Origin: an uncultured Pseudomonadota bacterium | Lineage (GTDB): Bacteria > Pseudomonadota > Gammaproteobacteria > Burkholderiales > Eutrophovitaceae | Length of the DNA: 64,000 bases | Assembly: GCA_937983055.1 (NCBI GenBank) | Contig: CALJLA010000068.1 | Location: 784-64,783 of the forward strand | Direction of reading: 5' to 3' | Shown: in pieces, positions 17,329-64,000 of the stretch | How the letters are laid out: the number at the start of each line of letters is the position of its first letter | Position numbering within the stretch: position 1 is the first letter of the stretch | Made by a program: the position numbers and the translations under genes | The notes under the pieces: model-generated | Told to the model about the DNA's origin: nothing | What the model saw: the letters and a program-made list of their open reading frames with translations, nothing else | Databases searched by the model: none

Positions 17329-17382
17329 TACCAAGAATCGCACGGCTTGCGCGCAACCTTTCCGGCAACCAGGAGTCTCACG

Positions 17383-41529: not shown

Positions 41530-41600
41530 CGTTGCGCAACTCGTCGGAGCATGGACGGCCAATTACGAGTGTCGCGCAGCGTGTCATGCACAAAAAAAGC

Positions 41601-41631
41601 TTGACCTTCCCATAAGGGGAAGGTTTATCGT
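41601..41631 (+). promoter_or_regulatory. CueR-type promoter/operator (TTGACC-N19-TATCGT)
   Basis: TTGACCTTCCCATAAGGGGAAGGTTTATCGT, with the dyad ACCTTCCC-N5-GGGAAGGT as in E. coli PcopA. Confidence 0.7.
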
Positions 41632-41671
41632 AATGCCTGCCCTACCAGGGCTTTTTCTGGAGGATCAGGCC

Positions 41672-51166: not shown

Positions 51167-52290
51167 CTGACCGAATTGTCGAGTTTCCCGATCGCCGCGC
51201 AATTGCCGAGGAGGCTGCGACATGGCTGATTCGCCTGGATGCCGACGATGCGCCGACCCAGGTAGACATCGCGGCGCTTCAGGAGTGGCTGAGCCGCAGT
51301 CCCGTGCATCGCGAGGAACTCCAGAGCCTCGCGGTACTGTGGGAAAAGATGAACGTCCTGACCGAGCTTGCTGTGCCGCTGGCCAGGCCCGCCGGCCAAT
51401 CGGCGAGCCATACTCGATTGTTGTCTGTGCAGGCTGCGCTGGCGTCAGTGGCATTCGTCGCATTTGTGATATCGATCGGGATTGCTGCCCTGTTCTGGCA
51501 AAGCACGTCATCTTTTCACGAATCGAACGGCCTGTTCGCGACCGCGATCGGCCAGCAGCAGACGACAACACTGTCCGACGGCTCCGTCGTTGTCCTCAAT
51601 ACCGACAGCCAGATCGAGGTCAACTATCATGCAGAATTCCGCGACATTCGCTTGCTGCGTGGCGAAGCGCATTTTACGGTTGCTGATAACAGCGACCAAC
51701 CGTTTCGTGTATTCGCCGGCACCGGCCGGGTGCAGGCGATTGGCACGGCATTCTCTGTGTATCTGAAAGAACAGAGCATTGATGTAACCGTTACGGACGG
51801 TCGGGTTTCGTTGGCTACACTAAACGAACACCGCGCCGCTAGCGGGTTGTCGACAGTTGTTGATCATGTGGAACCACAGGCGTCAGGATCGGTTGAGACA
51901 GAGATCGACGACTACCTCGAGGCGGTTGTAGCGCTGAGCGCCGGGCAAAGCGCGACGATAAAGACCGGTCCGGACTCCGAATCGAACGCCCGGAGTATTC
52001 AGGAAAGCGTGCGGACGATCCCATCTCAGGATCTGGCCAAGAAACTGGCGTGGCGCGATGGCATGCTGTCCTTCGCAGGAGATCCACTGGAATTGGTCGT
52101 CAGCGAGATCAGCCGATACACGCCAATCACGATCGAAATTGCCGATCCGGCAATCCGTGCAACGCGCATCGGTGGGCAGTTTCCGGTCGGACAGACGGAG
52201 GCCATGTTCGACGCGCTCGAGGCAAATTTCGGGTTGCGTGTTACGCGTTTGAGCCGTGATCGTGTCGTGCTATCTGCCGCAAACGAGTAA
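51163..52290 (+). CDS. FecR-family anti-sigma factor
   Basis: The N-terminus AATWLIRLDADD...LQEWL, one TM segment and a periplasmic FecR domain. ATGA overlap with the sigma gene. Confidence 0.85.
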   Translation: MTDRIVEFPDRRAIAEEAATWLIRLDADDAPTQVDIAALQEWLSRSPVHREELQSLAVLWEKMNVLTELAVPLARPAGQSASHTRLLSVQAALASVAFVAFVISIGIAALFWQSTSSFHESNGLFATAIGQQQTTTLSDGSVVVLNTDSQIEVNYHAEFRDIRLLRGEAHFTVADNSDQPFRVFAGTGRVQAIGTAFSVYLKEQSIDVTVTDGRVSLATLNEHRAASGLSTVVDHVEPQASGSVETEIDDYLEAVVALSAGQSATIKTGPDSESNARSIQESVRTIPSQDLAKKLAWRDGMLSFAGDPLELVVSEISRYTPITIEIADPAIRATRIGGQFPVGQTEAMFDALEANFGLRVTRLSRDRVVLSAANE

Positions 52291-52411
52291 CACCGGGTCG
52301 TCGAACGATACGGAGCTGCGTCCGGCTCGCCAGCCGCGGACCTTGTCGCGTCTGCACATCGACGGCTGGCGAACGGTCAAGAACCCTGGTTCCTGGGCTC
52401 GCAGAGAAAAA

Positions 52412-55400
52412 ATGTTCAAGTTTTATTGCGGCTTTCCGGTCCTCGGTAGTTATCTGATTGACAAGTCCGATCGGGTACATCGACAGAGGAACTGCGTGTC
52501 CGGACGGGTTGTTGGGGGAACGCAACATCGGGCTGCCCGCGTGACGCGATGGTTGGCGAGTTGGCTGATGGTGGCCATGCTGAGTACCGCGAGCATCGCC
52601 GCCGAGCCGTCCGGTGAGCCGTTGTTTGACATTGACATACCGCCCTTGAATGCGGCGGAGGCGTTGAACCGCCTTGCCAAACAAACCGGCGCAATCATGC
52701 TTTTCCCCTACGACCTGGCTGAATCTCGACAAGCCAACGCAGTATCGGGTCGATATTCGTTGAGCGATGCTTTGGAGCTGCTCCTGCGGGACTCGGGACT
52801 CTCGAGCGGACTGTCGGACAAACGTGTGATTCAGATCTACGTTGCTGAAGAGACAGAACGTGACACCGAGGTGGGGGACGACATGAATACGAGAAAGAAG
52901 ACAGGTTTGGTAGCGATGCTGGCGAGCGTGTTCAGCGTCAGTGCGAGCGCACAGGATTCGGGGACCCTGGCGGGCGATGGCAATACCGTCGAAGAAGTGG
53001 TCGTGACGGGCAGTCGCATTGCCCGAAAAGACCTCAACAGCGTCGGGCCCATGACGATAATCGGCGCTCCGGAAATCGAAGCGACGGGCGTCACGTCGCT
53101 CGAAGTGCTGCTGCAGCGACTACCGTCATCGGCTGGCTTTGGCGGCAATCAGACATCGGCGTACTGGGTGTCGAACGGCTGGGGTACGCCACAGATCAAC
53201 CTGCGGGGCATGGGCATCAACCGCACGCTGGTTCTGCTGAACGGAAGACGAATCGTCGCCGGCGGGACCGGTGCGAATACCTCCGTGGATCTGAGCATGA
53301 TCCCGGTTTCGATCATCGAGCAGATCGAGGTGCTCAAGGACGGCGCATCGGCCATCTATGGCGCTGACGCGGTCGCCGGCGTTGTCAATATCATTACCAA
53401 GAAGAACTTCGAGGGCGTCGAAGCCGCGGTCAAGGCCGGTGCGGCGTTCGAGGGCGATGGCGAGGAGTTACAGCTCGACCTGACCTGGGGCGTCACAAAC
53501 GAACGTGGCAGCCTGATGGCCAACATCAGCTATCAGGATGCAGACGAGGTTTACATGCCTGACCGTGTCGACTGCCCCCGGTCCGAGGTCAATGGCCAGC
53601 TCGTTTGCTTCGGCAGCAGCAGTACTACGGGCGGCCGGGCGCTCTTGCCCGACGGAACGCGCATAAACTTCAACCAGGATCCCAATGGCAGCGGTGACGA
53701 TTTCGCAATTTACGATCCGTTGATTCACAACTTCGACTTCAATCAGTCGTTCAACGCCGTCAATCCCCTGGAACGCCTGTCGTTTTCGGCATTCGGCAAT
53801 CACGAGTTGACGGACCGGGTCGGCATATTCGGCGAGGTCATGTACACAAATCGACAGACCGACCAGCCTGCCTCACCGACCACTATCAGGAACATCTTTT
53901 TCGACGCCAGCCACCCGACCAATCCGACCGGCGAGGACGTATTCCTGGAAAATCGGCGCATCGCCGAAAGTGGCGACCGGCAGTTTTTCCAGGAAACAGA
54001 TACCTGGCGCGTGGTTGCCGGGCTCGATGGCGAGTTCTCCGATACGTGGAGCTGGGATGTTTCCTACAACTGGGGGCGCAATACCGGTATCGATGGCTCA
54101 ACGAACATCGTCAATCTGCTAAGGCTCAACGAAACGCTGGATACCTCGATCTGTGGAACGGGCGGTATCCCCTGTGCCGATATCCTGGGCCTCGGCGACG
54201 TAACACAGGAGGTCATGGACTACATTCTGTTCACGATGGTCGGTACCGGTGGCAACGAGCAGACGAGCATCTCGGCCAACGTGTCGGGCGAATTGTTCGA
54301 TCTGCCGGCCGGCCCGGTATTGCTCGCCGCTGGCTACGAGAACAGGAACGACAAGGGCTGGCGCAACCCGGATTCACTGGTAATTATTGGCGCCGCCAAT
54401 ACGAATGCGGCCGACCCGATTTCGGGTACGGTCAAGTCCGACGAGTTCTACGTGGAAGCGAGCTTGCCGATTCTCGTCGATGCGCCGCTTGCCCGAAACC
54501 TCAACCTCGACTTGGCGTTTCGATTCTCGGACTATGAAACCTTTGGCAGCGACGACAACTTCAAGATCGGCCTCAACTGGCAGATCATTGATGATCTGAA
54601 GATTCGTGCGAATCTGTCGACCGCGTTCAGAGTGCCGAACGTCAATGAACTGTTCGGCGGCGTCGCTGAGGGCAACCTGACGACGACCGATCCATGTTCG
54701 GGCTGGAGCGATCTGGATCCCAGTAACGTCGTCTACCAGAATTGCCAGGCCGACGGCGTTCCTGTGGGCTTCATGCAGCTCGGCAACACGATCCTGACAA
54801 CGGTGGGTGGCAATACTGCGCTCGAACCCGAGAGTGCCGACACGTTTACTCTTGGAGTCGTCTATGAACCGTCGTTCCTGGAAGGTCTGGCGCTGACACT
54901 CGACTACTATGACATCGAAATCGAGGACGCGATTACGCAAATTCCCGGTTCGACCAAGCTCGATGTTTGCTACAACACGCCGAATCTTGCGCATGAATTT
55001 TGTTCGCCAGCGCACTTTACGCGGAGCTCGTTGAGCGGAGACGTCAATTTCCTGTCGGCGCAACCCGTCAACTCGGGGCTGGAAACCATCAAGGGCATTG
55101 ATTTCGGGCTGACCTACAACTTCGACCTGATGGATTTGCCTGCTGCTTTCGATTTCAAGACGACGCTGTTGAACGAGTACGAGATCACGCCGTTTTCCGG
55201 TGCGGCACCTATCGTTCTGGATGGACACATTGGTGGCGGTAACGGAGGCTATTCTCGTTTTCGCTCTTACATGTCGCTGAATGTCGGTGCGGAAAGATGG
55301 GGCGGAACCTATTCCGTACAGGTCATCGGTGATGGTGACGACTTCAATGCTGAGCCACCAGCGATCGGTGCGGAGATCGATTCCGTTGTCTACCATTATT

Positions 55401-55573
55401 TGCAGGCGACGTATGAATTCTCTGACAGCATGCGGCTTGCAGTCGGAATCGACAATCTGTTCGACGAGGGCGCCCCTTACGTCGCGTCCTGGACGGATGC
55501 CAATACCGATACGATGACCTACGACCTCACCGGGCGGCGTGGCTACGCTCGGCTGACGTACCGCTGGCAGTAA
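52412..55573 (+). CDS. TonB-dependent transducer (STN signalling domain + plug + 22-strand barrel)
   Basis: STN region (IPPLNAAEALNRLAKQTGAIMLFPYD) and plug (VVVTGSRI...IEVLKDGASAIYGADAVAGVVNIITKK), with a C-terminal barrel ending TYRWQ. The start is uncertain. Confidence 0.85.
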   Translation: MFKFYCGFPVLGSYLIDKSDRVHRQRNCVSGRVVGGTQHRAARVTRWLASWLMVAMLSTASIAAEPSGEPLFDIDIPPLNAAEALNRLAKQTGAIMLFPYDLAESRQANAVSGRYSLSDALELLLRDSGLSSGLSDKRVIQIYVAEETERDTEVGDDMNTRKKTGLVAMLASVFSVSASAQDSGTLAGDGNTVEEVVVTGSRIARKDLNSVGPMTIIGAPEIEATGVTSLEVLLQRLPSSAGFGGNQTSAYWVSNGWGTPQINLRGMGINRTLVLLNGRRIVAGGTGANTSVDLSMIPVSIIEQIEVLKDGASAIYGADAVAGVVNIITKKNFEGVEAAVKAGAAFEGDGEELQLDLTWGVTNERGSLMANISYQDADEVYMPDRVDCPRSEVNGQLVCFGSSSTTGGRALLPDGTRINFNQDPNGSGDDFAIYDPLIHNFDFNQSFNAVNPLERLSFSAFGNHELTDRVGIFGEVMYTNRQTDQPASPTTIRNIFFDASHPTNPTGEDVFLENRRIAESGDRQFFQETDTWRVVAGLDGEFSDTWSWDVSYNWGRNTGIDGSTNIVNLLRLNETLDTSICGTGGIPCADILGLGDVTQEVMDYILFTMVGTGGNEQTSISANVSGELFDLPAGPVLLAAGYENRNDKGWRNPDSLVIIGAANTNAADPISGTVKSDEFYVEASLPILVDAPLARNLNLDLAFRFSDYETFGSDDNFKIGLNWQIIDDLKIRANLSTAFRVPNVNELFGGVAEGNLTTTDPCSGWSDLDPSNVVYQNCQADGVPVGFMQLGNTILTTVGGNTALEPESADTFTLGVVYEPSFLEGLALTLDYYDIEIEDAITQIPGSTKLDVCYNTPNLAHEFCSPAHFTRSSLSGDVNFLSAQPVNSGLETIKGIDFGLTYNFDLMDLPAAFDFKTTLLNEYEITPFSGAAPIVLDGHIGGGNGGYSRFRSYMSLNVGAERWGGTYSVQVIGDGDDFNAEPPAIGAEIDSVVYHYLQATYEFSDSMRLAVGIDNLFDEGAPYVASWTDANTDTMTYDLTGRRGYARLTYRWQ

Positions 55574-55587
55574 GGACACGGGTAGCG

Positions 55588-55613
55588 TGCGGGGCGGCGG
55601 CTGCCGCCCCGCA
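55588..55613 (+). terminator. GC-rich hairpin after the receptor gene
   Basis: TGCGGGGCGGC-ggct-GCCGCCCCGCA, an 11-bp perfect stem with no clear T-tract. Confidence 0.45.
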
Positions 55614-55681
55614 GTGAGCGAAGTGCGCTCTGCTGCGTGGGTACCAAGCGTGAGTCACACAATGCAATCAGGAATAAAATC

Positions 55682-56446
55682 ATGAAAGCGCCGTTTCTTG
55701 CGCGCAAGGCCCACAAGTGGCTCGCATTGATTGTCGGTATTCAGGCCATGTTCTGGATGGTCAGCGGCGCTTACATGGCAACGGTGGACATCGACTTCAT
55801 CCATGGCGATCCCCTGGTCAAGAACGTCGTTGAGCCTGTCGGAAAGGATCTGGCCGAGCTCTATCCCATGAGCGACATTCTCGAACGATATCCGCAGGCC
55901 ACCCGGGTTCAGTTCATAGCGCGACGCGGCGACCCGCACTATATCGTCAAGACTGCGCAGGGCAGTACCCTTCTGGACGCCACAACTGGAGCGGAACGCA
56001 CGCCGATCGATCGCAGTGAGGCCATGGCGCTGGCCACGCACTACTACGCCGGCGATGGCGAGATCATTGCTGCTGTATTGCTTGACGACAGTGATGCCCG
56101 GCCAACCGAGATCCAGTCACGGCCATTGCCGCTCTGGCAGGTGCGATTCGACGACCGGATTGAAACGACTTTCTATGTATCGCCGACGACAGGAGAGCTG
56201 ATTACTCGCCGCCACACATTCTGGCGGCTATACGATTTCTTGTGGATGTTCCACATCATGGATTACGAGAATCGAACGGACTTCAATAATAATTTACTCA
56301 GAGTGGCCGCGTTCGTCGGACTCCTGTTTGCGTTGACCGGTGTCTGGCTCCTGTTCTACAGCCTGAAGAAGCGCCAGCAGGCGGTCATACCGGTCGATGA
56401 CTCGAACATTGGTGATAGAAGTGATCTGGTTCCGAAGACTCCATAA
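55682..56446 (+). CDS. PepSY-domain membrane protein (PepSY_TM-like, 2 TM)
   Basis: N-terminal AHKWLALIVGIQAMFWMVSG helix, a periplasmic domain of about 170 aa, and a C-terminal FLWMFHIMDY...TGVWLLFYSL helix. Confidence 0.65.
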   Translation: MKAPFLARKAHKWLALIVGIQAMFWMVSGAYMATVDIDFIHGDPLVKNVVEPVGKDLAELYPMSDILERYPQATRVQFIARRGDPHYIVKTAQGSTLLDATTGAERTPIDRSEAMALATHYYAGDGEIIAAVLLDDSDARPTEIQSRPLPLWQVRFDDRIETTFYVSPTTGELITRRHTFWRLYDFLWMFHIMDYENRTDFNNNLLRVAAFVGLLFALTGVWLLFYSLKKRQQAVIPVDDSNIGDRSDLVPKTP

Positions 56447-58274
56447 GTGGATCGGACTTGCGATCGGAATCCAGGTGGGCATCTGGATGTTGAGTGGTCT
56501 TATGATGGGCCTGCTCGACCACGAACACGTTCAGGGACATCACTACCAGGCGGTCGCCGACGTCATGCCGGTTTCGGCATCTTCGCGCAATGTGCTGAGC
56601 GTCGGCGATATTCTCGAGCGAGCCGCTTCGGCTGCGCCGATCTTCGATATTTCACTGAGATCGCATCTTGGTCGTGCTGCATACCAGGTAAAAAATGCCG
56701 GCGGATCGCAGCTGTTCGATGCAACGTCCGGCAGCCGAATCGTCGTTACAGCCGAGGATGCCGCGGCACTGGCGGGGCAGGACTACTCGGGGCCCGGACA
56801 GATCGTGTCGATCGAACCGGTTCAGGCACCGAGCATGGAGATCCGCCGGCATTCGGGCGACGCATGGCGCGTTGCGTTCGACGACGATGACGCGACGACG
56901 TTATACATCGCGGCCGATGACGGGAGAATTCTCGAGCGTCGCAATGATACGTGGCGACTTTTTGATGTGTTCTGGATGCTGCACATCATGGACTACAAGG
57001 AGCGGGAAGATTTCAATAATGCCCTCGTCATTCTGGTTTCACTGATTGCTGCCTGGTTCTCGATCACGGGCGTGGTCCTGTTCTTCGATAGCTTTCGACG
57101 CGAGGATTTTCTTGCATTGGTGCCGGGCGGTTGGTGGCGATCTCCGGCGCAAATCGCGGTGTGCGCGCCGCACGGCGAGGTTGTCGCACGCGTGAGTTCG
57201 CACGTCGGTGGCCGTCTCTACGACGAATTGGCCAGGGACGACATTGTATTGCCGTCAAACTGCGGAGGTGGCGGAACGTGCGGGCTCTGCGTCGTAAACC
57301 TCGGACCGGACTGGCCTGAGTCGGCGGCCGATCGTCGCTTGTTGTCAGAGTCGCAACGAAAAAAGGGAATCCGGTTGTCCTGTCAAGCCGAAGTTGCGAG
57401 CGATATGGTTGTTGGAATATCCGACGACGTGCTGTCGGCACAGGAACTCACAGCCGAGGTAGCCGAATGTCGTTTCCTGACGCCGTTTATCCGCGAAATT
57501 CGTCTGCGGCTACCTGAGAACGACTTTGACTATGCGGCCGGTTCCTATGTCCACGTAATAATTCCACGGTACAAGCTTGAGTACGCGAAGCTAGGGTTGA
57601 CGTCCGAAGCTAGCAGATCGTGCGAGGCGGTCGGTGCCCAGGTCACCAACGTCAACAAGTCCGAAACTCGGCGGGCATACTCTTTGGCGACACCGTGCGA
57701 GCAGGAGCGCGGAACGATCGTGCTCAATGTACGACTGATGGTGCCGCCGGAGGGTAGCCAGGCGCTGCCGGTGGGCGTCGGATCCACATATATGTGGTCA
57801 CTCCAGCCCGGGGACAAATTGGACATCGTCGGCCCACTGGGCGATTTCAGGGCTCGAGAGTCCAATGCGGATATGATCTTTGTTGGTGGCGGCGCCGGCA
57901 TGGCACCGCTTCGTGCCATTATACGAAGCGAGCTCCTGTACAAGCAGAGCGGCAGAAAAATTGACTTCTGGTACGGTGCCCGCACCCGGGCAGATCTATT
58001 CTACGCAAGAGAATTCGATGAGCTACAAGGTCAACACCCGAATTTCCGATGGCAACCCGTGCTGTCGGAGCCACTGTCGGTGGACGGCTGGCAGGGCCCC
58101 ACAGGATTCGTCCATGCCGTTGCCCTGCAGGATCTGATCGGCCAGGACCGGGACTTCGGAGCCTGTGAATTCTATGTTTGCGGCCCGCCGCCGATGCTCG
58201 CGGCAACCCGTAGAATGCTGGCTGAAAAAGGGGTTCCAGAGAACAGCGTCTTTTTCGACGATTTCGGGATCTAG
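56397..58274 (+). CDS. fusion protein: PepSY_TM-like module + plant-type 2Fe-2S ferredoxin + FAD/NAD(P)H reductase (NqrF-like)
   Basis: The N-terminal half is paralogous to 55682-56446 (LHKWIGLAIGIQVGIWMLSG; VFWMLHIMDY). It is followed by CGGGGTCGLC...LSCQ, RAYSLAT and FVGGGAGMAPL. The true start may be a GTG around 56412-56421. Confidence 0.75.
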   Translation: MTRTLVIEVIWFRRLHKWIGLAIGIQVGIWMLSGLMMGLLDHEHVQGHHYQAVADVMPVSASSRNVLSVGDILERAASAAPIFDISLRSHLGRAAYQVKNAGGSQLFDATSGSRIVVTAEDAAALAGQDYSGPGQIVSIEPVQAPSMEIRRHSGDAWRVAFDDDDATTLYIAADDGRILERRNDTWRLFDVFWMLHIMDYKEREDFNNALVILVSLIAAWFSITGVVLFFDSFRREDFLALVPGGWWRSPAQIAVCAPHGEVVARVSSHVGGRLYDELARDDIVLPSNCGGGGTCGLCVVNLGPDWPESAADRRLLSESQRKKGIRLSCQAEVASDMVVGISDDVLSAQELTAEVAECRFLTPFIREIRLRLPENDFDYAAGSYVHVIIPRYKLEYAKLGLTSEASRSCEAVGAQVTNVNKSETRRAYSLATPCEQERGTIVLNVRLMVPPEGSQALPVGVGSTYMWSLQPGDKLDIVGPLGDFRARESNADMIFVGGGAGMAPLRAIIRSELLYKQSGRKIDFWYGARTRADLFYAREFDELQGQHPNFRWQPVLSEPLSVDGWQGPTGFVHAVALQDLIGQDRDFGACEFYVCGPPPMLAATRRMLAEKGVPENSVFFDDFGI

Positions 58275-58764
58275 CGGGGTTCGAAATTTGGCCGGCGCTG
58301 GAAGATGCGTCCCTCAAATTTCGCGGAATGTCCGAAGCCCAAAAGCTGCAGAGTAGGGCAGTCGTATCGTGAATCAGCCCGCAACAAGCGGAACCCCGTT
58401 TGCTCGTGGGCGAACCGGTGCGTGAGATTTGCTTGGTTTGGTCATGCAGTTATGTGCACAATGCCGCGATTGCAACGGGCGTCCTGCCACATAATGGTAA
58501 ACAAAACATTTACTTACTGTTGATCTGGCGAACTCCGAAGGCAGGGGTCATAGGTTCGATCGGAGCGCGACGCAGTCGCGCGACAGACGCACGAACGCAG
58601 TGAGTGCGCCCGAAGGGCGAGGGCCGCAGATCCGAGTCAATCCTGTCGAGCGCGCCATTCTCTTCATGTAGGGCCTTAAGACCACGGTGACACGTCAGCT
58701 CGAGATTCCTCCGCCTCACTGCGAATGCCCTATGCGTAGATCGGAGAACTGCAAAGGAGCCTCC

Positions 58765-58795
58765 TTGACATGGAGTGAACTCCAGGTTGTAGGCT
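58765..58795 (+). promoter_or_regulatory. MerR-type promoter (TTGACA-N19-TAGGCT) with TGGAGT-GA-ACTCCA dyad
   Basis: TTGACATGGAGTGAACTCCAGGTTGTAGGCT. The -10 element ends 7 nt before the ATG at 58803. Confidence 0.5.
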
Positions 58796-58802
58796 GTTTC
58801 CA

Positions 58803-59192
58803 ATGAATATGGAGACACGAGAAACTCGCGTGACTTGGTTGGCGTTATTTGCGTCAACCGGCACCCTGATCTGTTGTGCGCTGCCAATCGCATTCGTTGC
58901 ACTCGGTCTCGGGGCGACAGTCGCGGCAATTTCATCCAGCTTTCCGATATTGGTTTCGATAGCCCAACACAAGGCCTGGGTCTTTACCGGCGCCGCCGTG
59001 CTTCTTGTATTGACGGGCTGGCTCCTGTTCCGCTCGGGTCGCGAGTGCCCCGCAGATCCAGAACTTCAGGCTGCGTGCGATCGAGTCCTGATGTGGAATC
59101 GTCGAATTTTCTGGATAGCCGTTGCCATCTGGGCGATCGGGTTTTTCGCGGCCTATGCAGCACTACCGCTGCGGATCTGGTTGGAAGGCTGA
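58803..59192 (+). CDS. MerT-like three-TM metal transporter
   Basis: TM1 carries a vicinal pair in LICCALP, as in the MerT CC motif. The loop between TM2 and TM3 has a second Cys pair (RECPADPELQAAC). Confidence 0.55.
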   Translation: MNMETRETRVTWLALFASTGTLICCALPIAFVALGLGATVAAISSSFPILVSIAQHKAWVFTGAAVLLVLTGWLLFRSGRECPADPELQAACDRVLMWNRRIFWIAVAIWAIGFFAAYAALPLRIWLEG

Positions 59193-59230
59193 TGACTCGA
59201 ATGAAAATCGAAATCGTATTGGAGAGTGAG

Positions 59231-59533
59231 ATGCGGAAGATAGTGCCGTTGGTGTTGAGTCTTGTCTTCATGTCGACGGTTGCCTTTGCCACAGAGCATC
59301 AGGTCGTGGAGATCGAGGTGACTGGGCTTGCGTGCCCGTTTTGTGCCTACAGCGTGGAGAAAAGCATCAAGAAGTTGCCGGGAGTTAATTGCGTCCAGGT
59401 TGATCTGGCAAACGGTGAGGTTCGAATTGAAATGCGGGCCGACCATACAGTCGATCTCGAGCAGGTCAAGCACGCGATCCTCAACGCCGGGTTCACTCCC
59501 GGTGAGGCGACAATGTCTACGGTCGACGAGTAG
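59231..59533 (+). CDS. periplasmic HMA-domain protein (MerP-like)
   Basis: Signal peptide followed by VTGLACPFCAYSVEKSI (CxxC HMA motif). A GGAGAG RBS lies upstream. Confidence 0.75.
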   Translation: MRKIVPLVLSLVFMSTVAFATEHQVVEIEVTGLACPFCAYSVEKSIKKLPGVNCVQVDLANGEVRIEMRADHTVDLEQVKHAILNAGFTPGEATMSTVDE

Positions 59534-60429
59534 TGCGCTACCGGAACACGTTGCTCGGAATTGCGCTTGGCCTGATTATCTTCGGCCCGGCTGTCGGCGC
59601 ACCGGTGACCTTTAATACGGCGTTGCCGGTCGGCGGCGACGAATTCGTTGCCCGAGGTCTGGTGGTGGTGAGTCAGTCGGGGGACGGTCCTGGTGCGGAC
59701 GACAGGGATCTGGCGAGCACGTCAGTCATCGCCGTATTGGGATATGGTCTGAATCACAGGCTCGCATTGTTTGGGGTTCTGCCCTATGTCGACAAGGAGC
59801 TCGATATCACGATGAACGGCAGTCGCGTCAACCGTTCGTCCAGTGGCCTCGGTGATGCAAGTGCTTTTCTTCGATACACGCTAGTGCAACGGGACCAGCC
59901 GGGGCACACGTTTCGTGTCGCGCCTTTCGCCGGACTCAAGGCGCCGACAGCCGACGATAACAGGAGCGACTCAATCGGTCGGTTGCCGCCTGGCCTGCAA
60001 TCCGGTTCCGGCGCGTGGGACGTGTTCGGCGGTGTTACCGCGACTTACCAAACACTGGACTTTCAGGCTGATGCACAGGCGAGTTATCGCGTAAGAAATG
60101 AAGCGAACGGCTTCGACCCGGGCGACGAATTCCGCCTGGATGGTTCCCTCCAATACCGATTGTGGCCCCAGTCGTTAGGCGACGGGGTTCCGGATTTCTT
60201 GTATGCGGTACTCGAAGCTAATCTCGTCCGTCGTGACAACAACCGTGTTAACGGCGCCGATGACCCGAACTCTGGCGGTACAACAATCTACCTGTCGCCC
60301 GGCGTACAATACGTGACAAGACGCTGGATTGTGGAGGGTGTCGTGCAATTACCTGTAGTACAGAATCTTCACGGCACGGCACTTGAAAACGACTATGTTG
60401 TTCGTGCCGGATTTCGATTCAATTTTTGA
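59533..60429 (+). CDS. outer-membrane beta-barrel, MetA-pathway/'transporter' family-like
   Basis: Signal peptide, alternating beta-strand pattern, GLGD and GSGAWD motifs, and a C-terminal RAGFRFNF. Confidence 0.6.
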   Translation: MRYRNTLLGIALGLIIFGPAVGAPVTFNTALPVGGDEFVARGLVVVSQSGDGPGADDRDLASTSVIAVLGYGLNHRLALFGVLPYVDKELDITMNGSRVNRSSSGLGDASAFLRYTLVQRDQPGHTFRVAPFAGLKAPTADDNRSDSIGRLPPGLQSGSGAWDVFGGVTATYQTLDFQADAQASYRVRNEANGFDPGDEFRLDGSLQYRLWPQSLGDGVPDFLYAVLEANLVRRDNNRVNGADDPNSGGTTIYLSPGVQYVTRRWIVEGVVQLPVVQNLHGTALENDYVVRAGFRFNF

Positions 60430-60431
60430 AT

Positions 60432-60695
60432 ATGACCGTTACGGTAGAATTGTTTACCTCGGGCGGCTGCCCTCACTGCGCCAGGGCAATGAAGCTATTG
60501 GCGCGAGTCGGTGAGTCTTTTGGTGCCGACCGGGTTGTGCTGCGACAGGTCGACGTCGTGACTGAAATCGACTATGCAGTGGCGCTCGGAGTGCTGTCCA
60601 CACCGGCGGTCGCGGTGGACGGAGAACTACTATTTACATCGCTGCCGCCTGAGAAAAAGCTACATGCGGAACTACTGAAACGAGTATCAACTTAA
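60432..60695 (+). CDS. small thioredoxin/glutaredoxin-like protein (CPHC)
   Basis: VELFTSGGCPHCARA...LSTPAVAVDGELLF matches the pattern of small thioredoxin-fold proteins. No signal peptide is present. Confidence 0.7.
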   Translation: MTVTVELFTSGGCPHCARAMKLLARVGESFGADRVVLRQVDVVTEIDYAVALGVLSTPAVAVDGELLFTSLPPEKKLHAELLKRVST

Positions 60696-60739
60696 CCTCG
60701 TAGTTCCGAGCAGCGATTTACTTGAACGAGCGTAATCAG

Positions 60740-61132
60740 ATGAACGAATACCTGATCGGTCAAGCAGCAAGTCGTGTTGGCCTGAGTGCCGACACGTTGC
60801 GTTACTACGAGAAGATTGGATTGTTGCCCACGGTGTCGCGCAACAGTGCCGGGCGACGAATGTACATAGATAGAGATATTTCGCGACTGAATTTCGTAAA
60901 GCGCGCCCAGCGAATGAACTTCACTTTAGCGGAGATCGCCCAGTTGCTGGAAATGCGAGAGAATCCACAGGGGGCACGAGAAGCAGTGCGGGCTGTAAGT
61001 CAACAAAAGTTGGTTCAGATTGAGGAGCAGCTCGAAGAATTGATGGTTTTAAAGAATGAGATGCAATTACTCATTAATCTTTGCCACGGAGCGGAAGACG
61101 GCTGTCCGATTATCGAGAGACTGGAAGGTTGA
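60740..61132 (+). CDS. MerR-family metal-responsive regulator (C-x6-C loop, CueR/CadR-like)
   Basis: IGQAASRVGLSADTLRYYEKIGLL HTH and the loop LCHGAEDGCPIIERL. There is no Cys at the helix-5 (position-79-like) site. Confidence 0.8.
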   Translation: MNEYLIGQAASRVGLSADTLRYYEKIGLLPTVSRNSAGRRMYIDRDISRLNFVKRAQRMNFTLAEIAQLLEMRENPQGAREAVRAVSQQKLVQIEEQLEELMVLKNEMQLLINLCHGAEDGCPIIERLEG

Positions 61133-61196
61133 ATCGATACTGGTCTTGCGCAGTCGCAGGGAGTTGTAATTGCACCTGCGTGACGGATCGTGGTGC

Positions 61197-61622
61197 TTAC
61201 ACTCGCGCTTCGGTATCCGGATCGAGTAGCGCATCGATAATTGGGCATTCGGGCACTTTGCTCCCCGTGCACTTCGCAGCTATCGAACGCAATGTAGCCC
61301 CAAGGCGTTGAAGGTCAGCTATCTTCGATTCCACGATGGCGGCGTGACCGAGCGTCAAATCGCGCACATCCGCACACGTGTAATCGTGTTCATCGACGAG
61401 CTCGAGCAGATTACCGATATCCCGCATCGAGAAGCCCAGTTGCCGGCACCGGACAATGAAGTTCAGTCGATTAAGGTCATCCTCTCTATAGACACGGTAG
61501 CCACCGGCCGTGCGCGGCGGCTTTGGCAGGATGCCGCTCTTCTCGTAGTAGCGGATCGTATCGACCTTGACGCCGGTTCGCTTCGATAGCTCACCGATCT
61601 GCATTTCGCCGGAATTCTTCAT
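61197..61622 (-). CDS. merR: Hg(II)-responsive MerR
   Basis: IGELSKRTGVKVDTIRYYEKSGIL HTH. Three Cys at positions 83, 118 and 126 (TCADV, KCTGS, ECPII) match the C82/C117/C126 spacing of MerR. The gene is divergent from a mer operon. Confidence 0.8.
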   Translation of the reverse strand: MKNSGEMQIGELSKRTGVKVDTIRYYEKSGILPKPPRTAGGYRVYREDDLNRLNFIVRCRQLGFSMRDIGNLLELVDEHDYTCADVRDLTLGHAAIVESKIADLQRLGATLRSIAAKCTGSKVPECPIIDALLDPDTEARV

Positions 61623-61631: not shown

Positions 61632-61662
61632 TTGACTCTGGAGTCACTCCAGGGTTGATACT
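61632..61662 (+). promoter_or_regulatory. mer operator/promoter (TTGACT-N19-GATACT) with CTGGAGT-C-ACTCCAG dyad
   Basis: TTGACTCTGGAGTCACTCCAGGGTTGATACT lies between divergent merR and orfX-merB. Confidence 0.6.
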
Positions 61663-61698
61663 CGGTCCATGCAACAACAATTGCAAGGAGGGATCGGC

Positions 61699-62211
61699 AT
61701 GGTTCGGATGATTTTCCTGAGTTGGATTATTGCGGCTGGCGCGCTGCTCGCGGGCCTTCCAGGCACGTCACATTCGGCTACTGCCGTTCCTGTGTTGGCG
61801 CTGGAGTTCGTGTACCAGCAATCCGAGCGTCGCTGGTTCCGGGACCGACCGGCGTTTTTCGAGACTTACCTGGGAACGGGCAACGGCCAGGCGACAGGCA
61901 GGCTCGAGGGCTGGGTCGGATGGGATTTGTACGAAGACCAAAAGCGCGACGACTTTCATCCGGCCCATTTCCACGGCTTCATCGAGCAGGACGGCCAACG
62001 ACACGAGTTTCAGATCATCGGCATCTATACGCCGATCAGCGACGACTCCGCCGTCACGCCAGACGGCAAGACACATCCAAAGCTCTGGGCACTGTCCGGC
62101 GCAATCGTGTTCGAGGATACGACAGTGCTGGGCGCACGGCATCTGCCCGTCACCGGCGTCGCCAACCTGGAAACCTGGACCGCATCCTACGAAGTGTGGG
62201 AAACGTCATGA
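61699..62211 (+). CDS. exported Cys-free hypothetical protein (first gene of the mer operon)
   Basis: An AAGGAGGG RBS precedes the ATG at 61699. It has a signal peptide (LLAGLPGTSHSA) and an ATGA overlap with merB. I did not recognise a family. Confidence 0.55.
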   Translation: MVRMIFLSWIIAAGALLAGLPGTSHSATAVPVLALEFVYQQSERRWFRDRPAFFETYLGTGNGQATGRLEGWVGWDLYEDQKRDDFHPAHFHGFIEQDGQRHEFQIIGIYTPISDDSAVTPDGKTHPKLWALSGAIVFEDTTVLGARHLPVTGVANLETWTASYEVWETS

Positions 62212-62894
62212 GTGCCAAATCAATCAGTCACCGGCTGACAACACTGTTTCCGCCACTTGATGCGACCGACGCGCGCATCGCTCTGAGCATTTATCGCTTG
62301 CTTGTAGGCAATGCGCCTGTCAATCCAGGCAATATCGCGAACGAGTCTGGTGAAGCGGAGGCGCATGTGCGTTATCTGCTCAATCACTGGCCTGGGGTAT
62401 ATCGCGATGACGATTCCAACATCATCGGCTTCTGGGGACTGGCTCGACCGGAAATGGGTTACGAACTATCGATCGCCGGTCAGGCGCGATTCGCCTGGTG
62501 CGCGTGGGATACGTTATTTCTTCCAGAGCTCCTGAACGCCGAAGTGCGAGTCGACGCGGCGACCGGCCTCGCACAAAAACCCGTTCATTTGACGGTCACG
62601 CCTGACGCCGTCATGCGCGAAATGCCAATCGATGACGAACTTTACGTCTCGTTCAACTTGCCGACCGACGAAAACTGGGAGGACAACGTCGTCGCGTCAT
62701 TTTGTCACCATGTCCATTTCCTTTATGCCGACGAAGTAACTGCCTGGCGTGAGCGAAACACCGGGGGAGTGGTCTTGACACTTCGGGAGGCATTCAGTGC
62801 GGGGAAATCCAAGAACCGGCATCAGTTCGGCTCGGTCATGCTCGATGCGGAATCCGATGCCGCATCGCCGGCTTCGCAATTACATCAGGCCTGA
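62208..62894 (+). CDS. merB: organomercurial lyase MerB
   Basis: AWCAWDTLFLPELL and SFCHHVHFL correspond to the catalytic Cys96/Asp99 and Cys159 regions of MerB (AWCALDTLIFP, SFCCHVHFF). Confidence 0.85.
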   Translation: MSAKSISHRLTTLFPPLDATDARIALSIYRLLVGNAPVNPGNIANESGEAEAHVRYLLNHWPGVYRDDDSNIIGFWGLARPEMGYELSIAGQARFAWCAWDTLFLPELLNAEVRVDAATGLAQKPVHLTVTPDAVMREMPIDDELYVSFNLPTDENWEDNVVASFCHHVHFLYADEVTAWRERNTGGVVLTLREAFSAGKSKNRHQFGSVMLDAESDAASPASQLHQA

Positions 62895-62897
62895 ATC

Positions 62898-63302
62898 ATG
62901 AATGAAACGAATCGAAACGCAGCAATGACGAACGGAAGCGCTACTCCGGAAACTGGCAACGGTCGGCAGAAGTTTCTCGCTGCCGGTAGCGTTCTCGGCG
63001 GTGTCCTCGCGTCAACGTGCTGCATCGCGCCACTGCTGCTCGTCACACTCGGCGTCGGCGGCGCGTGGATGGGCAGACTGACTGCGCTGGCGCCGTATCA
63101 ACCCTATTTCGTCGCTGCCACGCTGGCGTTCCTTGCCGGCGGTTTCTGGTATGTCTACTGGAAACCGCGGCGAGCCTGTGACGCAGATGGATACTGTGCG
63201 ACCGACACGGCCGACAGGGTCGTGAAAGTCGCACTCTGGGTCGCCACCGGCCTCGTCGCTCTGGCGCTCGGAGTGACCTACCTATTGCCTTACTTTTTGT
63301 AG
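62898..63302 (+). CDS. merT: mercuric ion transporter MerT
   Basis: LASTCCIAPLLLVTLG (CC in TM1), LAPYQPYF, and the cytoplasmic pair RACDADGYC. Confidence 0.85.
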   Translation: MNETNRNAAMTNGSATPETGNGRQKFLAAGSVLGGVLASTCCIAPLLLVTLGVGGAWMGRLTALAPYQPYFVAATLAFLAGGFWYVYWKPRRACDADGYCATDTADRVVKVALWVATGLVALALGVTYLLPYFL

Positions 63303-63312
63303 GAGAACTGCA

Positions 63313-63600
63313 ATGAATAGAATACTTCTGACGACGTCCGTTGTGCTGCTCATACTGGTGTCGGCTTTTGCCGTCGCCGAAGAGCGCACCGTCGTACTGA
63401 ACGTCGAGAAGATGCACTGCGCGCTGTGTCCTGTGACTGTGCGCAAAGCGATCGAGAAAGTCGATGGCGTCAAAAACGTTGTCGTGGACTTCGATCGCAA
63501 GACAGCAACTGTAATCTACGATGATGATGCGACGACGATCGAGAGGATCGCCGATGCATCAACAAACGTAGGCTATCCGGCTGCGCCGTCCCGGGAGTAA
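63313..63600 (+). CDS. merP: periplasmic mercury-binding protein MerP
   Basis: Signal peptide followed by VEKMHCALCPVTVRKAIE (HMA CxxC). Confidence 0.85.
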   Translation: MNRILLTTSVVLLILVSAFAVAEERTVVLNVEKMHCALCPVTVRKAIEKVDGVKNVVVDFDRKTATVIYDDDATTIERIADASTNVGYPAAPSRE

Positions 63601-63621
63601 CCTTCCGGTTGCTAACATTGA

Positions 63622-64000
<379 letters not shown>

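What the first reader, a model, noticed from the sequence alone, without database searches (positions are those of the whole stretch)
58765..61132. A second, divergent MerT/MerP-like pair is linked to an outer-membrane barrel, a CPHC thioredoxin-fold protein and a CueR/CadR-like regulator, a possible envelope-spanning thiol-metal relay
The cluster contains five genes in order. (1) A three-TM protein with a vicinal CC in TM1 (LICCALP) and a cytoplasmic-loop Cys pair (CPADPELQAAC), which is the MerT layout but with little sequence similarity to the bona fide MerT at 62898. (2) A periplasmic HMA protein (GLACPFC). (3) A MetA-pathway/'transporter'-type outer-membrane barrel whose GTG start overlaps the previous stop. 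(4) A small cytoplasmic thioredoxin-fold protein with CPHC. (5) A MerR-family regulator with a C-x6-C loop and no helix-5 Cys. Canonical mer operons have no outer-membrane component and no thioredoxin. Adding both would give a complete route: outer-membrane channel, periplasmic binder, inner-membrane transporter, then cytoplasmic thiol acceptor. The MerA downstream lacks the NmerA domain that normally takes Hg(II) from MerT, so the CPHC protein could be its functional replacement.
Basis: partly seen in the sequence, partly recalled or inferred. Interest (0 to 1): 0.65.

Follow-up and report, generated by a model that had tools for sequence, protein, structure and literature searches.

The report
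Mercury-type uptake cassette with outer-membrane channel
A compact, horizontally exchanged five-gene operon widespread in marine bacteria appears to add an outer-membrane channel, a thioredoxin-like protein and its own two-cysteine sensor to a distant relative of the mercury transporter pair MerT/MerP; nobody seems to have described it.

Summary
Window 58765-61132 holds a MerR-type promoter and five co-oriented, tightly packed genes:
- T*, a 3-TM protein with CC in TM1 and a loop Cys pair
- a secreted HMA protein (GLACPFC)
- a COG4313/Phenol_MetA_deg outer-membrane protein
- a small cytoplasmic thioredoxin-fold protein
- a MerR-family regulator with an invariant C-x6-C and no third Cys

T* has no Pfam or NCBIfam hit, but it is a remote MerT homologue (hhalign 95%, E 3e-8).

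The set is co-conserved. In 77 non-redundant loci from other genomes, HMA accompanies T* in 74, the OMP in 61, Trx in 45 and the regulator in 43. Gene order varies. A conserved ZntR-like operator/promoter (19-nt spacer) precedes the cluster in 74 of 85 loci.

Mer genes are the commonest neighbours (18/77). In four loci a regulator passing NCBI's Hg-MerR equivalog cutoff lies close upstream on the opposite strand. In one locus MerA follows T*.

Most likely this is an Hg(II)/soft-metal uptake and hand-off module.

The idea that the CPHC protein replaces NmerA is not supported. CPHC is unique to the window, Trx occurs alongside NmerA-bearing MerAs, and in 21 loci a CcdA/DsbD-like membrane protein follows it.

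No literature on the cluster was found.

The parts
58765..58795 (+). MerR-type promoter/operator: -35 TTGACA (58765-58770), 19-nt spacer holding the dyad TGGAGT-GA-ACTCCA (58771-58784), -10 TAGGCT (58790-58795)
   Evidence: Read from the sequence. The same layout, cTTGACcTGGAGTnnACTCCAGGnnGTAGGCT, lies upstream of the first cluster gene in 74 of 85 related loci. The half-sites and 2-nt centre match the E. coli zntA promoter. The ordinary 16-18-nt sigma-70 scan does not find it, as expected for a 19-nt spacer.
58803..59192 (+). T*: 129-aa, 3-TM inner-membrane protein, a divergent MerT-superfamily member (CC at 24-25 in TM1; C82 and C92 in the positively charged TM2-TM3 loop). The mRNA is probably leaderless.
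   Evidence: The ATG lies 8 nt after the -10, as in L002, L006 and L012.
59231..59533 (+). Secreted (periplasmic) HMA protein, 100 aa, GLACPFC motif
   Evidence: PF00403 E 7e-13; MerP equivalog 37.8 bits against a cutoff of 92.55. GLACP[FY]C is conserved and signal peptides are present in orthologues.
59533..60429 (+). Outer-membrane protein of the COG4313 / Phenol_MetA_deg family, 298 aa; start overlaps the HMA stop by 1 nt
   Evidence: PF13557 E 4e-12. Signal peptide, C-terminal F, no Cys. The same 1-nt overlap occurs in L002-L005.
60426..60695 (+). Small cytoplasmic thioredoxin-fold protein (CPHC). The likely start is ATG 60432 (87 aa) by alignment with orthologues.
   Evidence: PF13192. 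Closest PDB entries are 1NHO and 1FO5, archaeal small thioredoxins. CxxC and the cis-Pro loop are conserved, the inner dipeptide is variable, and there is no signal peptide.
60722..61132 (+). R*: MerR-family regulator with invariant NLC-x6-CPII and no third Cys (alternative start ATG 60740)
61144..61161 (+). Weak terminator-like hairpin after R*
   Evidence: It is a consensus match only.
61197..61622 (-). Neighbour, not part of the cassette: three-Cys MerR-family regulator (YTC..., C-x7-C), convergent with R* and divergent from the mer operon
61632..61662 (+). Neighbour: mer operon promoter/operator TTGACT-CTGGAGTcACTCCAG-...GATACT. It has the same half-sites as the cassette operator but a 1-nt centre.
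61669..64000 (+). Neighbour: mer operon. It holds an unknown secreted 180-aa protein (61669-62211), MerB (62208-62894), MerT (62898-63302), MerP (63313-63600), and MerA without NmerA (63637 to beyond the window end).

Best explanation
The block 58759-61132 is a self-contained, horizontally exchanged operon. It most likely encodes a mer-type uptake and hand-off route for Hg(II), and possibly for related thiophilic mercury species, that spans the whole envelope.

Proposed mechanism:
1. A MerR-family activator bound to the dyad between the -35 and -10 boxes of a 19-nt-spacer promoter switches on a probably leaderless transcript.
2. The COG4313 barrel lets the metal species through the outer membrane.
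3. The secreted HMA protein (GLACPFC) captures it with two thiols.
4. It passes the metal to the vicinal Cys pair in TM1 of T*, a distant MerT relative.
5. T* moves it to its cytoplasmic Cys pair (C82/C92).
6. Cytoplasmic thiols, and MerA where present, take over.

The thioredoxin-fold protein is a cytoplasmic dithiol partner. Most likely it keeps the relay's cysteines reduced; in about half of the Trx-bearing relatives this would go through a CcdA/DsbD-like membrane protein. Less likely it is a metal acceptor.

The two-Cys regulator R* is encoded at the distal end of the operon, the position merD holds in Tn21/Tn501-type mer operons. It either autoregulates the cassette or modulates a three-Cys MerR acting on the same operator.

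Shown: the gene content, the homologies, the co-conservation, the conserved operator and the mer linkage. Inferred: the substrate, the direction of transport, every transfer step and the regulator's ligand.
For: Homology to MerT:
- Profile-profile match T* vs MerT at 95% probability, E 3e-8, over the full length, with the CC pair and the first loop Cys aligned.
- Same 3-TM layout.
- 7 of 33 diverse family members weakly hit PF02411.
- JGI names some members 'mercuric ion transport protein'.

Co-conservation:
- In 77 non-redundant loci: HMA 74, OMP 61, Trx 45, R* 43, all five 35. Gene order is shuffled and the OMP/HMA pair is often duplicated, which argues for function rather than shared synteny.

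Regulation:
- The conserved promoter/operator precedes the cluster in 74 of 85 loci. It also precedes Trx, the CcdA-like gene, an NHL protein and HMA+ATPase genes elsewhere.

Link to mercury:
- Mer genes lie within 8 kb in 18 of 77 loci. By my tally they are more frequent neighbours than ars (11) or RND efflux genes (11).
- In L057 a bona fide MerA (826 bits to PRK13748) follows OMP-HMA-T* on the same strand.
- In L033, L029, L052 and L019, the regulator lying just upstream (about 0.15-1.6 kb) of the OMP-HMA-T* operon on the opposite strand passes the curated Hg-MerR equivalog cutoff (156.4, 150.9, 153.6 and 151.5 against 150.85) and has the three-Cys C-x8-C signature. The conserved operator lies in the gap in L029, L033 and L052.

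Modularity:
- The window and L088 share exactly 58759-61125 at 96.2% identity, with unalignable flanks.

Logic:
- MerR-activated import makes physiological sense mainly in the mer scheme. This rests on established knowledge of mer operons.
Against: - Most related loci show no mer gene within 8 kb (59 of 77). Whole-genome merA content could not be checked.
- R* has only two Cys, like the monovalent-ion sensor CueR, whereas Hg-MerR uses three.
- The HMA protein scores higher against CopZ models than against MerP.
- Neighbourhoods also include copper, arsenic and RND efflux genes.
- The OMP has no Cys and no obvious metal site, and its family is linked to hydrophobic molecules.
- An outer-membrane channel that speeds entry of a poison has no obvious benefit.
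- There are no experimental data of any kind.
Confidence: 0.55

Rival explanations
1. The cassette is a Cu(I)/Ag(I)/Au(I) envelope system. R* would be a CueR-like monovalent-ion sensor. The HMA protein would be a periplasmic CopZ-like chaperone. T* and the OMP would move or buffer Cu(I), and the thioredoxin (with CcdA/DsbD-like partners elsewhere) would repair copper-damaged periplasmic thiols, as the Scs system does.
For: - R* has two Cys and no third ligand, and CueR is its top NCBIfam hit at 103 bits.
- The HMA protein's best hits are CopZ models.
- DsbA and DUF411 genes flank the cluster in L002-L004.
- The window itself carries multicopper oxidases and P1B ATPases.
- Trx is coupled to a CcdA/DsbD-like protein in 21 loci.
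Against: - T* is homologous to MerT, not to any copper transporter.
- The operator is ZntR-like, not CueR-like.
- The loop is C-x6-C, not CueR's C-x7-C, and Arg replaces Ser77.
- Hg-type MerR regulators and MerA are the specific neighbours.
- Metal-induced import of copper has no known rationale.
Confidence: 0.15
2. The cassette carries electrons, not metal. The cytoplasmic thioredoxin would reduce T* (or the CcdA/DsbD-like protein where present), and T* would pass reducing equivalents across the membrane. This would keep the CxxC of the periplasmic HMA protein, and other metal-binding thiols, reduced in an oxidising periplasm. T* would be a minimal DsbD/CcdA analogue.
For: - Trx is translationally coupled to a double CcdA/DsbD_TM protein in 21 of 45 Trx-bearing loci.
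- T* has two Cys pairs on opposite faces.
- The Trx resembles low-potential archaeal thioredoxins 1NHO and 1FO5.
Against: - T* is homologous to a known metal transporter.
- T* occurs without Trx in about 40% of loci.
- C82 is not conserved across the wider family.
- A dedicated OMP is not explained by an electron relay.
Confidence: 0.1
3. One reading: the CPHC thioredoxin-fold protein is the functional replacement for the NmerA domain. It would take Hg(II) from T* or MerT and deliver it to the NmerA-less MerA.
For: - The window's MerA lacks NmerA.
- A CxxC thioredoxin fold can bind Hg(II) (general knowledge).
- The protein is cytoplasmic and co-transcribed with the transporter.
Against: - CPHC is found only in the window's copy, and the inner dipeptide varies freely among orthologues.
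- Trx accompanies NmerA-bearing MerAs in L011, L019, L052, L067 and L075. It is absent from three NmerA-less loci, L057, L069 and L082.
- Most Trx-bearing loci have no MerA nearby.
- NmerA-less MerAs here carry their own N-terminal vicinal Cys tail, MDEHECC....
Confidence: 0.1
4. The cassette handles a divalent soft metal other than mercury (Cd, Pb or Zn). It would resemble the uptake arm of the pbr system (PbrT), with R* acting as a CadR-like sensor.
For: - The C-x6-C spacing equals my recollection of CadR's C112-x6-C119; this was not re-checked against a CadR alignment.
- The operator is ZntR/CadR-like.
- P1B ATPases sit under the same operator in L042 and L052.
Against: - The Cys77/79 ligand that defines divalent sensors is absent.
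- The CadR-PbrR model is the weakest of the metal-sensor hits, at 79 bits.
- The specific neighbours are mer genes.
Confidence: 0.08

Closest known systems
MerT/MerP Hg(II) uptake pair of mer operons (Tn501/Tn21 type; PF02411, TIGR02052)
   Same: - 3-TM protein of about 130 aa with a vicinal CC followed by Pro in TM1 and a Cys pair in the TM2-TM3 cytoplasmic loop.
- A secreted HMA partner with CxxC.
- A MerR-type promoter with a 19-nt spacer.
- Frequent physical linkage to merA and merR.
   Different: - T* fails the Pfam and NCBIfam MerT models and shares only 25% identity with the MerT 3.7 kb away.
- The loop pair is C-x9-C rather than C-x5-C.
- The HMA motif is GLACP[FY]C rather than GMTCxxC, and the protein fails the MerP equivalog.
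- The cassette adds an OMP, a thioredoxin-fold protein and its own regulator.
- The regulator has two Cys, not three.
COG4313 outer-membrane channels (Pput2725, TcpY, SphA)
   Same: Pfam family PF13557, a size of about 270-300 residues, a signal peptide and a C-terminal aromatic residue.
   Different: Characterised members take up hydrophobic organics such as trichlorophenol and sphingosine. None is linked to metals. This protein is translationally coupled to an HMA protein and sits under a metal-sensor promoter.
MJ0307 / MTH807-type small thioredoxins (PDB 1FO5, 1NHO; PF13192)
   Same: About 85 residues, an N-terminal CxxC (Mj0307 also has CPHC) and a cis-Pro loop. E-values are 4e-9 and 2e-11.
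   Different: It scores below the TIGR00411 equivalog cutoff. The inner dipeptide is hypervariable among orthologues. The gene is embedded in a metal operon and is often followed by a CcdA/DsbD-like gene.
CueR, CadR, ZntR and Hg-MerR metal sensors of the MerR family
   Same: The HTH, the dimerisation helix and a C-terminal Cys loop ending in CPII. There are two Cys as in CueR and a C-x6-C spacing as in CadR (the CadR spacing is from memory). The operator half-sites and 2-nt centre match ZntR's site at zntA.
   Different: It fails all five equivalog cutoffs. Arg or Lys occupies the Ser77/Cys79 position. It is encoded at the distal end of the operon it presumably controls, the position merD holds in Tn21/Tn501-type mer operons.
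ScsABCD / DsbD-CcdA reductant pathways
   Same: In 21 related loci the thioredoxin is followed directly by a membrane protein with DsbD_TM/CcdA domains, in a metal-stress context.
   Different: The window lacks the CcdA-like gene. No periplasmic thioredoxin-fold or DsbC-like partner was seen.

Membership tests
MerT (PF02411 / NF010314) | Passes the curated family HMM | tested here: not met
   No Pfam or NCBIfam hit at E<=0.01. Only 7 of 33 diverse relatives hit PF02411, best E 1e-6.
MerT (PF02411 / NF010314) | Detectable homology to MerT over the full length | tested here: met
   hhalign probability 95.1%, E 3e-8, 105 aligned columns. BLASTP to the window's MerT gives E 2e-4 at 25% identity.
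MerT (PF02411 / NF010314) | Three TM helices with a vicinal Cys pair in TM1 | tested here: met
   TM segments at 22-40, 58-76 and 102-120; C24 and C25. The AF2 model shows long helices, mean pLDDT 69.6. CC is conserved.
MerT (PF02411 / NF010314) | Cys pair in the cytoplasmic TM2-TM3 loop (C-x5-C in MerT) | tested here: inconclusive
   A pair is present at C82/C92 in an Arg-rich loop, but the spacing is C-x9-C. C82 is variable in the wider family.
MerT (PF02411 / NF010314) | Transports Hg(II) into the cell | not testable with these tools
   Needs uptake or hypersensitivity assays.
MerP (TIGR02052) | Secreted HMA protein passing the MerP equivalog, with a GMTCxxC motif | tested here: not met
   The HMA domain and signal peptide are present, but TIGR02052 scores 37.8 bits against a cutoff of 92.55 and CopZ models score higher. 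The motif is GLACPFC.
COG4313 / Phenol_MetA_deg OMP (PF13557) | Passes the Pfam gathering score; signal peptide; C-terminal aromatic residue | tested here: met
   47.1 bits against 22. Signal peptide and terminal F are present.
COG4313 / Phenol_MetA_deg OMP (PF13557) | [quoted passage not shown] | not tested
   There is no sequence hit in the PDB and no structure was predicted for this protein.
Thioredoxin_3 (PF13192) / MJ0307 thioredoxin (TIGR00411) | Thioredoxin fold with CxxC and a cis-Pro loop | tested here: met
   PF13192 scores 34.6 bits against 24.8. 1NHO E 2e-11 and 1FO5 E 4e-9. CxxC and the TP(A/S) loop are conserved in 53 sequences.
Thioredoxin_3 (PF13192) / MJ0307 thioredoxin (TIGR00411) | Passes the MJ0307 equivalog cutoff | tested here: not met
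   49.2 bits against 92.75.
CueR (TIGR02044) | Equivalog cutoff; C112-x7-C120; Ser77 | tested here: not met
   103 bits against 147.4. The loop is C-x6-C, and Arg aligns with Ser77.
CadR/PbrR (TIGR02047) | Equivalog cutoff; third Cys (Cys77/78) in the dimerisation helix | tested here: not met
   79 bits against 151.45, and no third Cys in any of 44 orthologues. Only the C-x6-C spacing matches, and the CadR spacing is from memory.
Hg(II) MerR (TIGR02051) | Equivalog cutoff; three Cys (C79/82, C-x8-C) | tested here: not met
   95.3 bits against 150.85, and only two Cys. By contrast, the regulators lying just upstream of the cluster on the opposite strand in L033, L029, L052 and L019 do pass.
MerR-family metal-responsive promoter | -35 and -10 boxes separated by 19-20 nt with a dyad operator in the spacer | tested here: met
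   TTGACA-19 nt-TAGGCT with TGGAGT-GA-ACTCCA, conserved in 74 of 85 loci. Binding and activation were not tested.
mer operon (functional unit with merA) | Transport genes co-localised or co-regulated with mercuric reductase | tested here: inconclusive
   merA lies within 8 kb in 12 of 77 loci, and any mer gene in 18 of 77. MerA is in line with the cluster in L057, and the window's cassette abuts a merB-T-P-A operon. Most loci show no mer gene nearby, and whole genomes could not be scanned.

The most novel reading that the evidence does not exclude
This would be the first dedicated envelope-spanning mercury acquisition route. A hydrophobic-substrate-type outer-membrane channel (COG4313) would admit neutral or lipophilic mercury species (HgCl2, Hg-thiol/sulfide complexes or organomercurials). 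It would feed a new MerT-superfamily thiol relay whose cysteines are maintained by a private thioredoxin (plus a CcdA-like protein). The cassette would be controlled by a previously unrecognised two-Cys class of MerR-family metal sensor. It moves among marine sulfur-cycling bacteria as a 2.4-kb plug-in module for mer systems.
Probability: 0.25. Interest if true: 0.8.

Novelty: new variant of a known kind. Interest (0 to 1): 0.6.

Why it matters
Mercury resistance is a textbook system, and its accepted parts list (MerR/D, T/P/C/E/F/G, A, B) has no outer-membrane component, no thiol-redox partner and no two-Cys sensor.

This cassette would add all three. The T* family is large:
- at least 223 species-level genomes, mostly uncultured marine Gammaproteobacteria including tubeworm symbionts, Woeseiaceae and sulfur oxidisers
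- 420 clusters at 50% identity with E<=1e-10

The family has no Pfam or NCBIfam model, and at least one RefSeq record leaves it unannotated. Surveys of mer genes in ocean and sediment metagenomes therefore miss it.

If it imports mercury species across both membranes, it bears on how marine bacteria take up and turn over Hg and possibly methylmercury. It would also give a compact module for bioremediation or biosensor design. The regulator family is a clean test case for how MerR-type sensors set metal selectivity with two rather than three thiols.

Tried and rejected
- tRNA/tmRNA and Rfam scans of the whole window, to see whether the GGTTCGA-like stretch at about 58540-58600 marks an integration site, found nothing.
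- A Foldseek search of the T* AF2 model against the PDB gave only generic helical bundles, none with E<=0.001.
- A PDB sequence search with the OMP gave no hit.
- Literature searches found no description of this cluster. Terms tried: MerT + outer membrane + thioredoxin; COG4313 + mercury; PF13557 / Phenol_MetA_deg; MerT-like / MerP-like; GDCCVxC.
- The cluster-member look-up gave no informative names.
- I tried to read the metal from P1B ATPases under the same operator in L042 and L052. They lack the CPC, YN/MxxSS and DxG signatures and have GYPCAxG instead, so they are uninformative.
- The Vibrio plasmid hit first looked like a T*-HMA fusion, which would have been Rosetta-stone evidence. It is an over-extended HMA CDS that overlaps an unannotated T* gene in another frame.
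- I first thought T* started at Met3. I rejected this because the first ATG sits at a conserved 8-nt offset from the -10 in the closest relatives.
- No flanking direct or inverted repeats mark the cassette ends.
- Chance juxtaposition of unrelated genes is rejected on the co-conservation data.

Full report
**1. What is in the window**

Between 58765 and 61132 on the + strand lie five tightly packed genes.

- T* (58803-59192, 129 aa) has three hydrophobic segments (residues 22-40, 58-76, 102-120). Its Cys residues are at 24, 25, 82 and 92. The last two sit in an Arg-rich loop, which should therefore be cytoplasmic. An AlphaFold model built on 20 homologues is of moderate confidence (pLDDT 69.6) and shows long helices that match this layout.
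- The second gene (59231-59533) encodes a 100-aa HMA protein with a Sec signal peptide and the motif GLACPFC.
- The third gene (59533-60429) starts with a GTG that shares one base with the HMA stop codon. It hits PF13557 (Phenol_MetA_deg, i.e. COG4313) at E 4e-12. It has a signal peptide, ends in Phe and contains no Cys.
- The fourth gene encodes a thioredoxin-fold protein with CPHC and no signal peptide. Its likely start is ATG 60432. Its closest solved relatives are the small archaeal thioredoxins 1NHO and 1FO5, and 1FO5 also has CPHC.
- The fifth gene (60722 or 60740 to 61132) is a MerR-family regulator with LCHGAEDGCP. In alignments to solved MerR and CueR structures it has Arg where MerR has Cys79 and CueR has Ser77.

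Downstream lie a convergent three-Cys MerR-family gene and an operon. The operon holds an unknown secreted protein, MerB, MerT, MerP and a MerA that begins directly with the FAD fold.

**2. T* is a remote MerT relative from a large unmodelled family**

Neither Pfam nor NCBIfam recognises T*. A word-indexed search still found 436 protein clusters. An exhaustive profile search found 420 clusters at 50% identity with E<=1e-10.

A profile of 20 T* homologues matches a profile of 11 MerTs with 95% probability and E 3e-8. The match covers the full length, and the CC pair and the first loop Cys are in register. The loop pair is C-x9-C in T* against C-x5-C in MerT.

In 33 diverse members, C25 and P28 are invariant and C24 and C92 are at least 90% conserved. 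C82 is less conserved. Only 7 of the 33 touch PF02411.

So T* works like, and descends with, MerT, but it is not a member of the family as currently modelled.

**3. The five genes belong together**

A scan of one genome per species found T* in 223 genomes. Almost all are marine Gammaproteobacteria MAGs: Woeseiaceae, Sedimenticola, Thiohalobacter, Thiogranum, Acidiferrobacterales and tubeworm endosymbionts. A few Alphaproteobacteria and one Phycisphaerales MAG also carry it.

I searched the ORFs of the 80 retained loci, plus five loci from earlier look-ups, with the window's proteins. Counts in 77 non-redundant loci:

| Component near T* | Loci (of 77) |
|---|---|
| HMA | 74 |
| OMP | 61 |
| Trx | 45 |
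| R* | 43 |
| All five | 35 |

Many contigs are truncated, so these are lower bounds. Among 42 loci with at least 5 kb on both sides of T*, all five are present in 24.

Gene order is not fixed. The two main layouts are T*-HMA-OMP-Trx-R*, as in the window, and OMP-HMA-T*-Trx-R*. Many loci carry two OMP paralogues and two or three HMA genes. Shuffled order with conserved membership argues for functional coupling.

The HMA motif GLACP[FY]C is conserved. So is the regulator's NLC-x6-CPII, with no other Cys in 44 orthologues.

**4. A conserved MerR-type promoter drives the operon**

Immediately upstream of T* the sequence reads TTGACA-TGGAGTGAACTCCAGGTTG-TAGGCT. That is a -35 box, a 19-nt spacer containing a perfect dyad, and a -10 box.

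The same layout precedes the first gene of the cluster in 74 of 85 loci. In some loci it also precedes Trx, the CcdA-like gene, an NHL-repeat gene and an HMA+P-type-ATPase pair. This suggests a small regulon.

The half-sites TGGAGT/ACTCCA and their 2-nt centre are those of the E. coli zntA promoter. I verified that promoter lies 36 nt upstream of zntA in 5426 of 5426 genomes.

The window's neighbouring mer promoter (61632-61662) has the same half-sites with a 1-nt centre. Cross-talk between the two regulators is therefore possible.

In the window and its closest relatives the T* ATG begins 8 nt after the -10, so the mRNA is probably leaderless. No ordinary promoter occurs inside the block on the + strand, and only a weak hairpin follows R*. 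A single transcript is therefore the simplest reading.

**5. The block is a mobile module**

A contig whose T* is 97% identical (L088) aligns to the window in one block only. Window 58759-61125 matches at 96.2% over 2367 nt. The block begins a few bases before the -35 and ends in the last codons of R*. The flanks on both sides cannot be aligned. No terminal repeats were seen.

In L088 the neighbour is again a divergent MerR-family gene. It is followed by a GDCCVxC protein, a Pfam-recognised MerT and unknown proteins.

**6. Which metal?**

The evidence favours mercury but does not prove it.

For mercury:
- T* is homologous to MerT.
- Mer genes are the commonest neighbours outside the cassette: merT in 14 loci, merA in 12, and any mer gene in 18 of 77. 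By my tally ars genes appear in 11 loci and RND efflux genes in 11.
- In L057 a bona fide MerA (826 bits) follows OMP-HMA-T* on the same strand.
- In L033, L029, L052 and L019, the regulator lying about 0.15-1.6 kb upstream of the OMP-HMA-T* operon on the opposite strand passes NCBI's curated equivalog cutoff for the mercury regulator MerR. It carries the three-Cys, C-x8-C signature. Three more regulators fall just below the cutoff. In L029, L033 and L052 the conserved operator lies in the short gap between the two. That is the position merT holds relative to merR in Tn501-type operons.

Against mercury:
- R* itself has only two Cys.
- The HMA protein resembles CopZ more than MerP.
- Most loci show no mer gene within 8 kb.
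- The islands also carry copper, arsenic and RND genes.
- The P1B ATPases under the same operator have an unusual GYPCAxG motif and give no clue.

**7. The thioredoxin**

- CPHC is unique to the window. Orthologues have CSKC (13), CGKC (6), CNRC, CDRC, CPRC and others. Only the two Cys, a usually basic residue before the second Cys, and the cis-Pro loop are conserved.
- Neighbouring MerAs include forms with NmerA (L011, L019, L052, L063, L067, L075) and without it (L029, L036, L057, L069, L079, L082). Trx occurs with both kinds.
- In 21 loci the gene after Trx, often overlapping it, encodes a 434-aa (sometimes about 220-aa) membrane protein with DsbD_TM/CcdA domains. That is the classic partner of a cytoplasmic thioredoxin in exporting reducing power.

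I therefore favour a role in keeping the relay's thiols reduced. A metal-acceptor role is not excluded. The window has no CcdA-like gene anywhere in its 64 kb.

**8. The outer-membrane protein**

COG4313 channels are 12-stranded barrels implicated in the uptake of hydrophobic molecules. No link to metals was found in the literature.

The barrel is translationally coupled to an HMA protein and has no Cys. This suggests a passive channel. A speculative possibility is that it admits neutral or lipophilic mercury species.

**9. Verdict**

The general interpretation, a MerT/MerP-like thiol relay extended to the outer membrane and to a cytoplasmic dithiol protein under its own MerR-family sensor, is supported by co-conservation, shared regulation and mer linkage. 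The NmerA-replacement detail is not supported.

I found no paper or curated model describing this cassette. I rate it a new variant of a known kind, of moderate to high interest. The substrate, the direction of transport and the transfer steps remain inferred.

Noticed in passing
window 61669-62211 (+): The first gene of the window's mer operon encodes a 180-aa secreted protein. It is His-rich (7 His), has no Cys and has no Pfam or NCBIfam family. Its stop overlaps the MerB start (ATGA). It was not found in any of the 85 related loci.
   Followed up: partly
window 63637-63670; L036 3855-5291 (-); L069 2232-3731 (+): MerAs that lack NmerA carry a short N-terminal tail with vicinal Cys: [11 protein letters not shown] in the window, SECCAS in L036 and SDCCNSGTC in L069. 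The tail echoes the C-terminal SCCAG pair and could be a minimal substitute for NmerA.
   Followed up: partly
L019 8782-10086; L010 9010-10314; L053 9469-10956 and 18 other loci: A membrane protein of about 434 aa with a C-terminal DsbD_TM/CcdA domain follows the thioredoxin gene directly. Its N-terminal half also looks CcdA-like. Cys motifs in the L019 sequence are EPC, a CC pair, PAC and CPFC. The gene is absent from the window.
   Followed up: partly
L042 2718-5258; L052 7910-10327: P1B-type ATPases sit under, or next to, the same operator. They have GYPCA(V/L)G in place of the usual CPC motif and lack the YN/MxxSS and DxG signatures. They may be a subgroup of unknown specificity.
   Followed up: partly
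e.g. L010 5758-5778, L011 6758-6778, L053 6401-6421, L085 386-406: In many loci where an OMP gene comes first, a second operator-like site (GAACCTGGAGTnnACTCCAGnnTGTCA) lies about 60 nt downstream of the promoter operator. Its role is unknown, and the window has no such site.
   Followed up: no
L017 1328-1924, L020 9061-9735, L053 5036-5596 (-), L069 644-1228, L081 8472-9029 and others: A further accessory family of about 190-220 aa recurs in the clusters. It gives only a weak match to the window's HMA protein and has a conserved C-terminal region (...LLKPxLxGRxxxIxVxF...).
   Followed up: no
L091 (Vibrio diabolicus plasmid NZ_CP069194.1) 6248-8383: A 45%-identical T* homologue is not annotated in RefSeq. 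An HMA CDS extended too far upstream covers it in another frame. The locus reads MerR-like | GDCCVxC (seleno)protein - T* - HMA - hypothetical, next to a Tn3 transposase. A GDCCVxC protein also starts the MerT operon beside the cassette in L088 (11581-11796).
   Followed up: partly
window 9691-12060, 17347-17634, 28907-30853, 41399-44286, 46777-49904: The whole window is rich in metal genes. It holds two P1B ATPases (one with HMA, one with HMBD domains), a free HMA protein, two multicopper oxidases, an OEP outer-membrane factor and six MerR-family genes in all.
   Followed up: partly
window 50567-58274: Directly upstream of the cassette lie an ECF sigma factor, a FecR-like protein, a TonB-dependent receptor, a PepSY_TM protein and a PepSY_TM-ferredoxin-FAD/NAD reductase fusion. 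This looks like a siderophore/iron-reduction unit. It appears unrelated to the cassette and is absent from that position in L088.
   Followed up: partly
window 61103-61116 and 61234-61247: A 14-nt inverted repeat arises because the two convergent MerR-family genes both end with CPII-coding sequence. It could promote recombination at the cassette's right boundary, which lies within a few codons of it.
   Followed up: no
L057 10016-12410: Downstream of the in-line MerA is an ORF with an N-terminal CC-containing membrane segment and a Cys-rich C-terminus, followed by two further ORFs. By eye this resembles a bufferin-type (DUF2282/DUF692/DUF2063) copper-peptide cluster. I did not check it with profiles.
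   Followed up: no
window 58275-58760: A 490-nt non-coding stretch lies between the reductase gene and the cassette promoter. It includes a GGTTCGATC T-loop-like motif near 58552-58560. ARAGORN and Rfam find nothing there, and the stretch is not shared with L088.
   Followed up: partly
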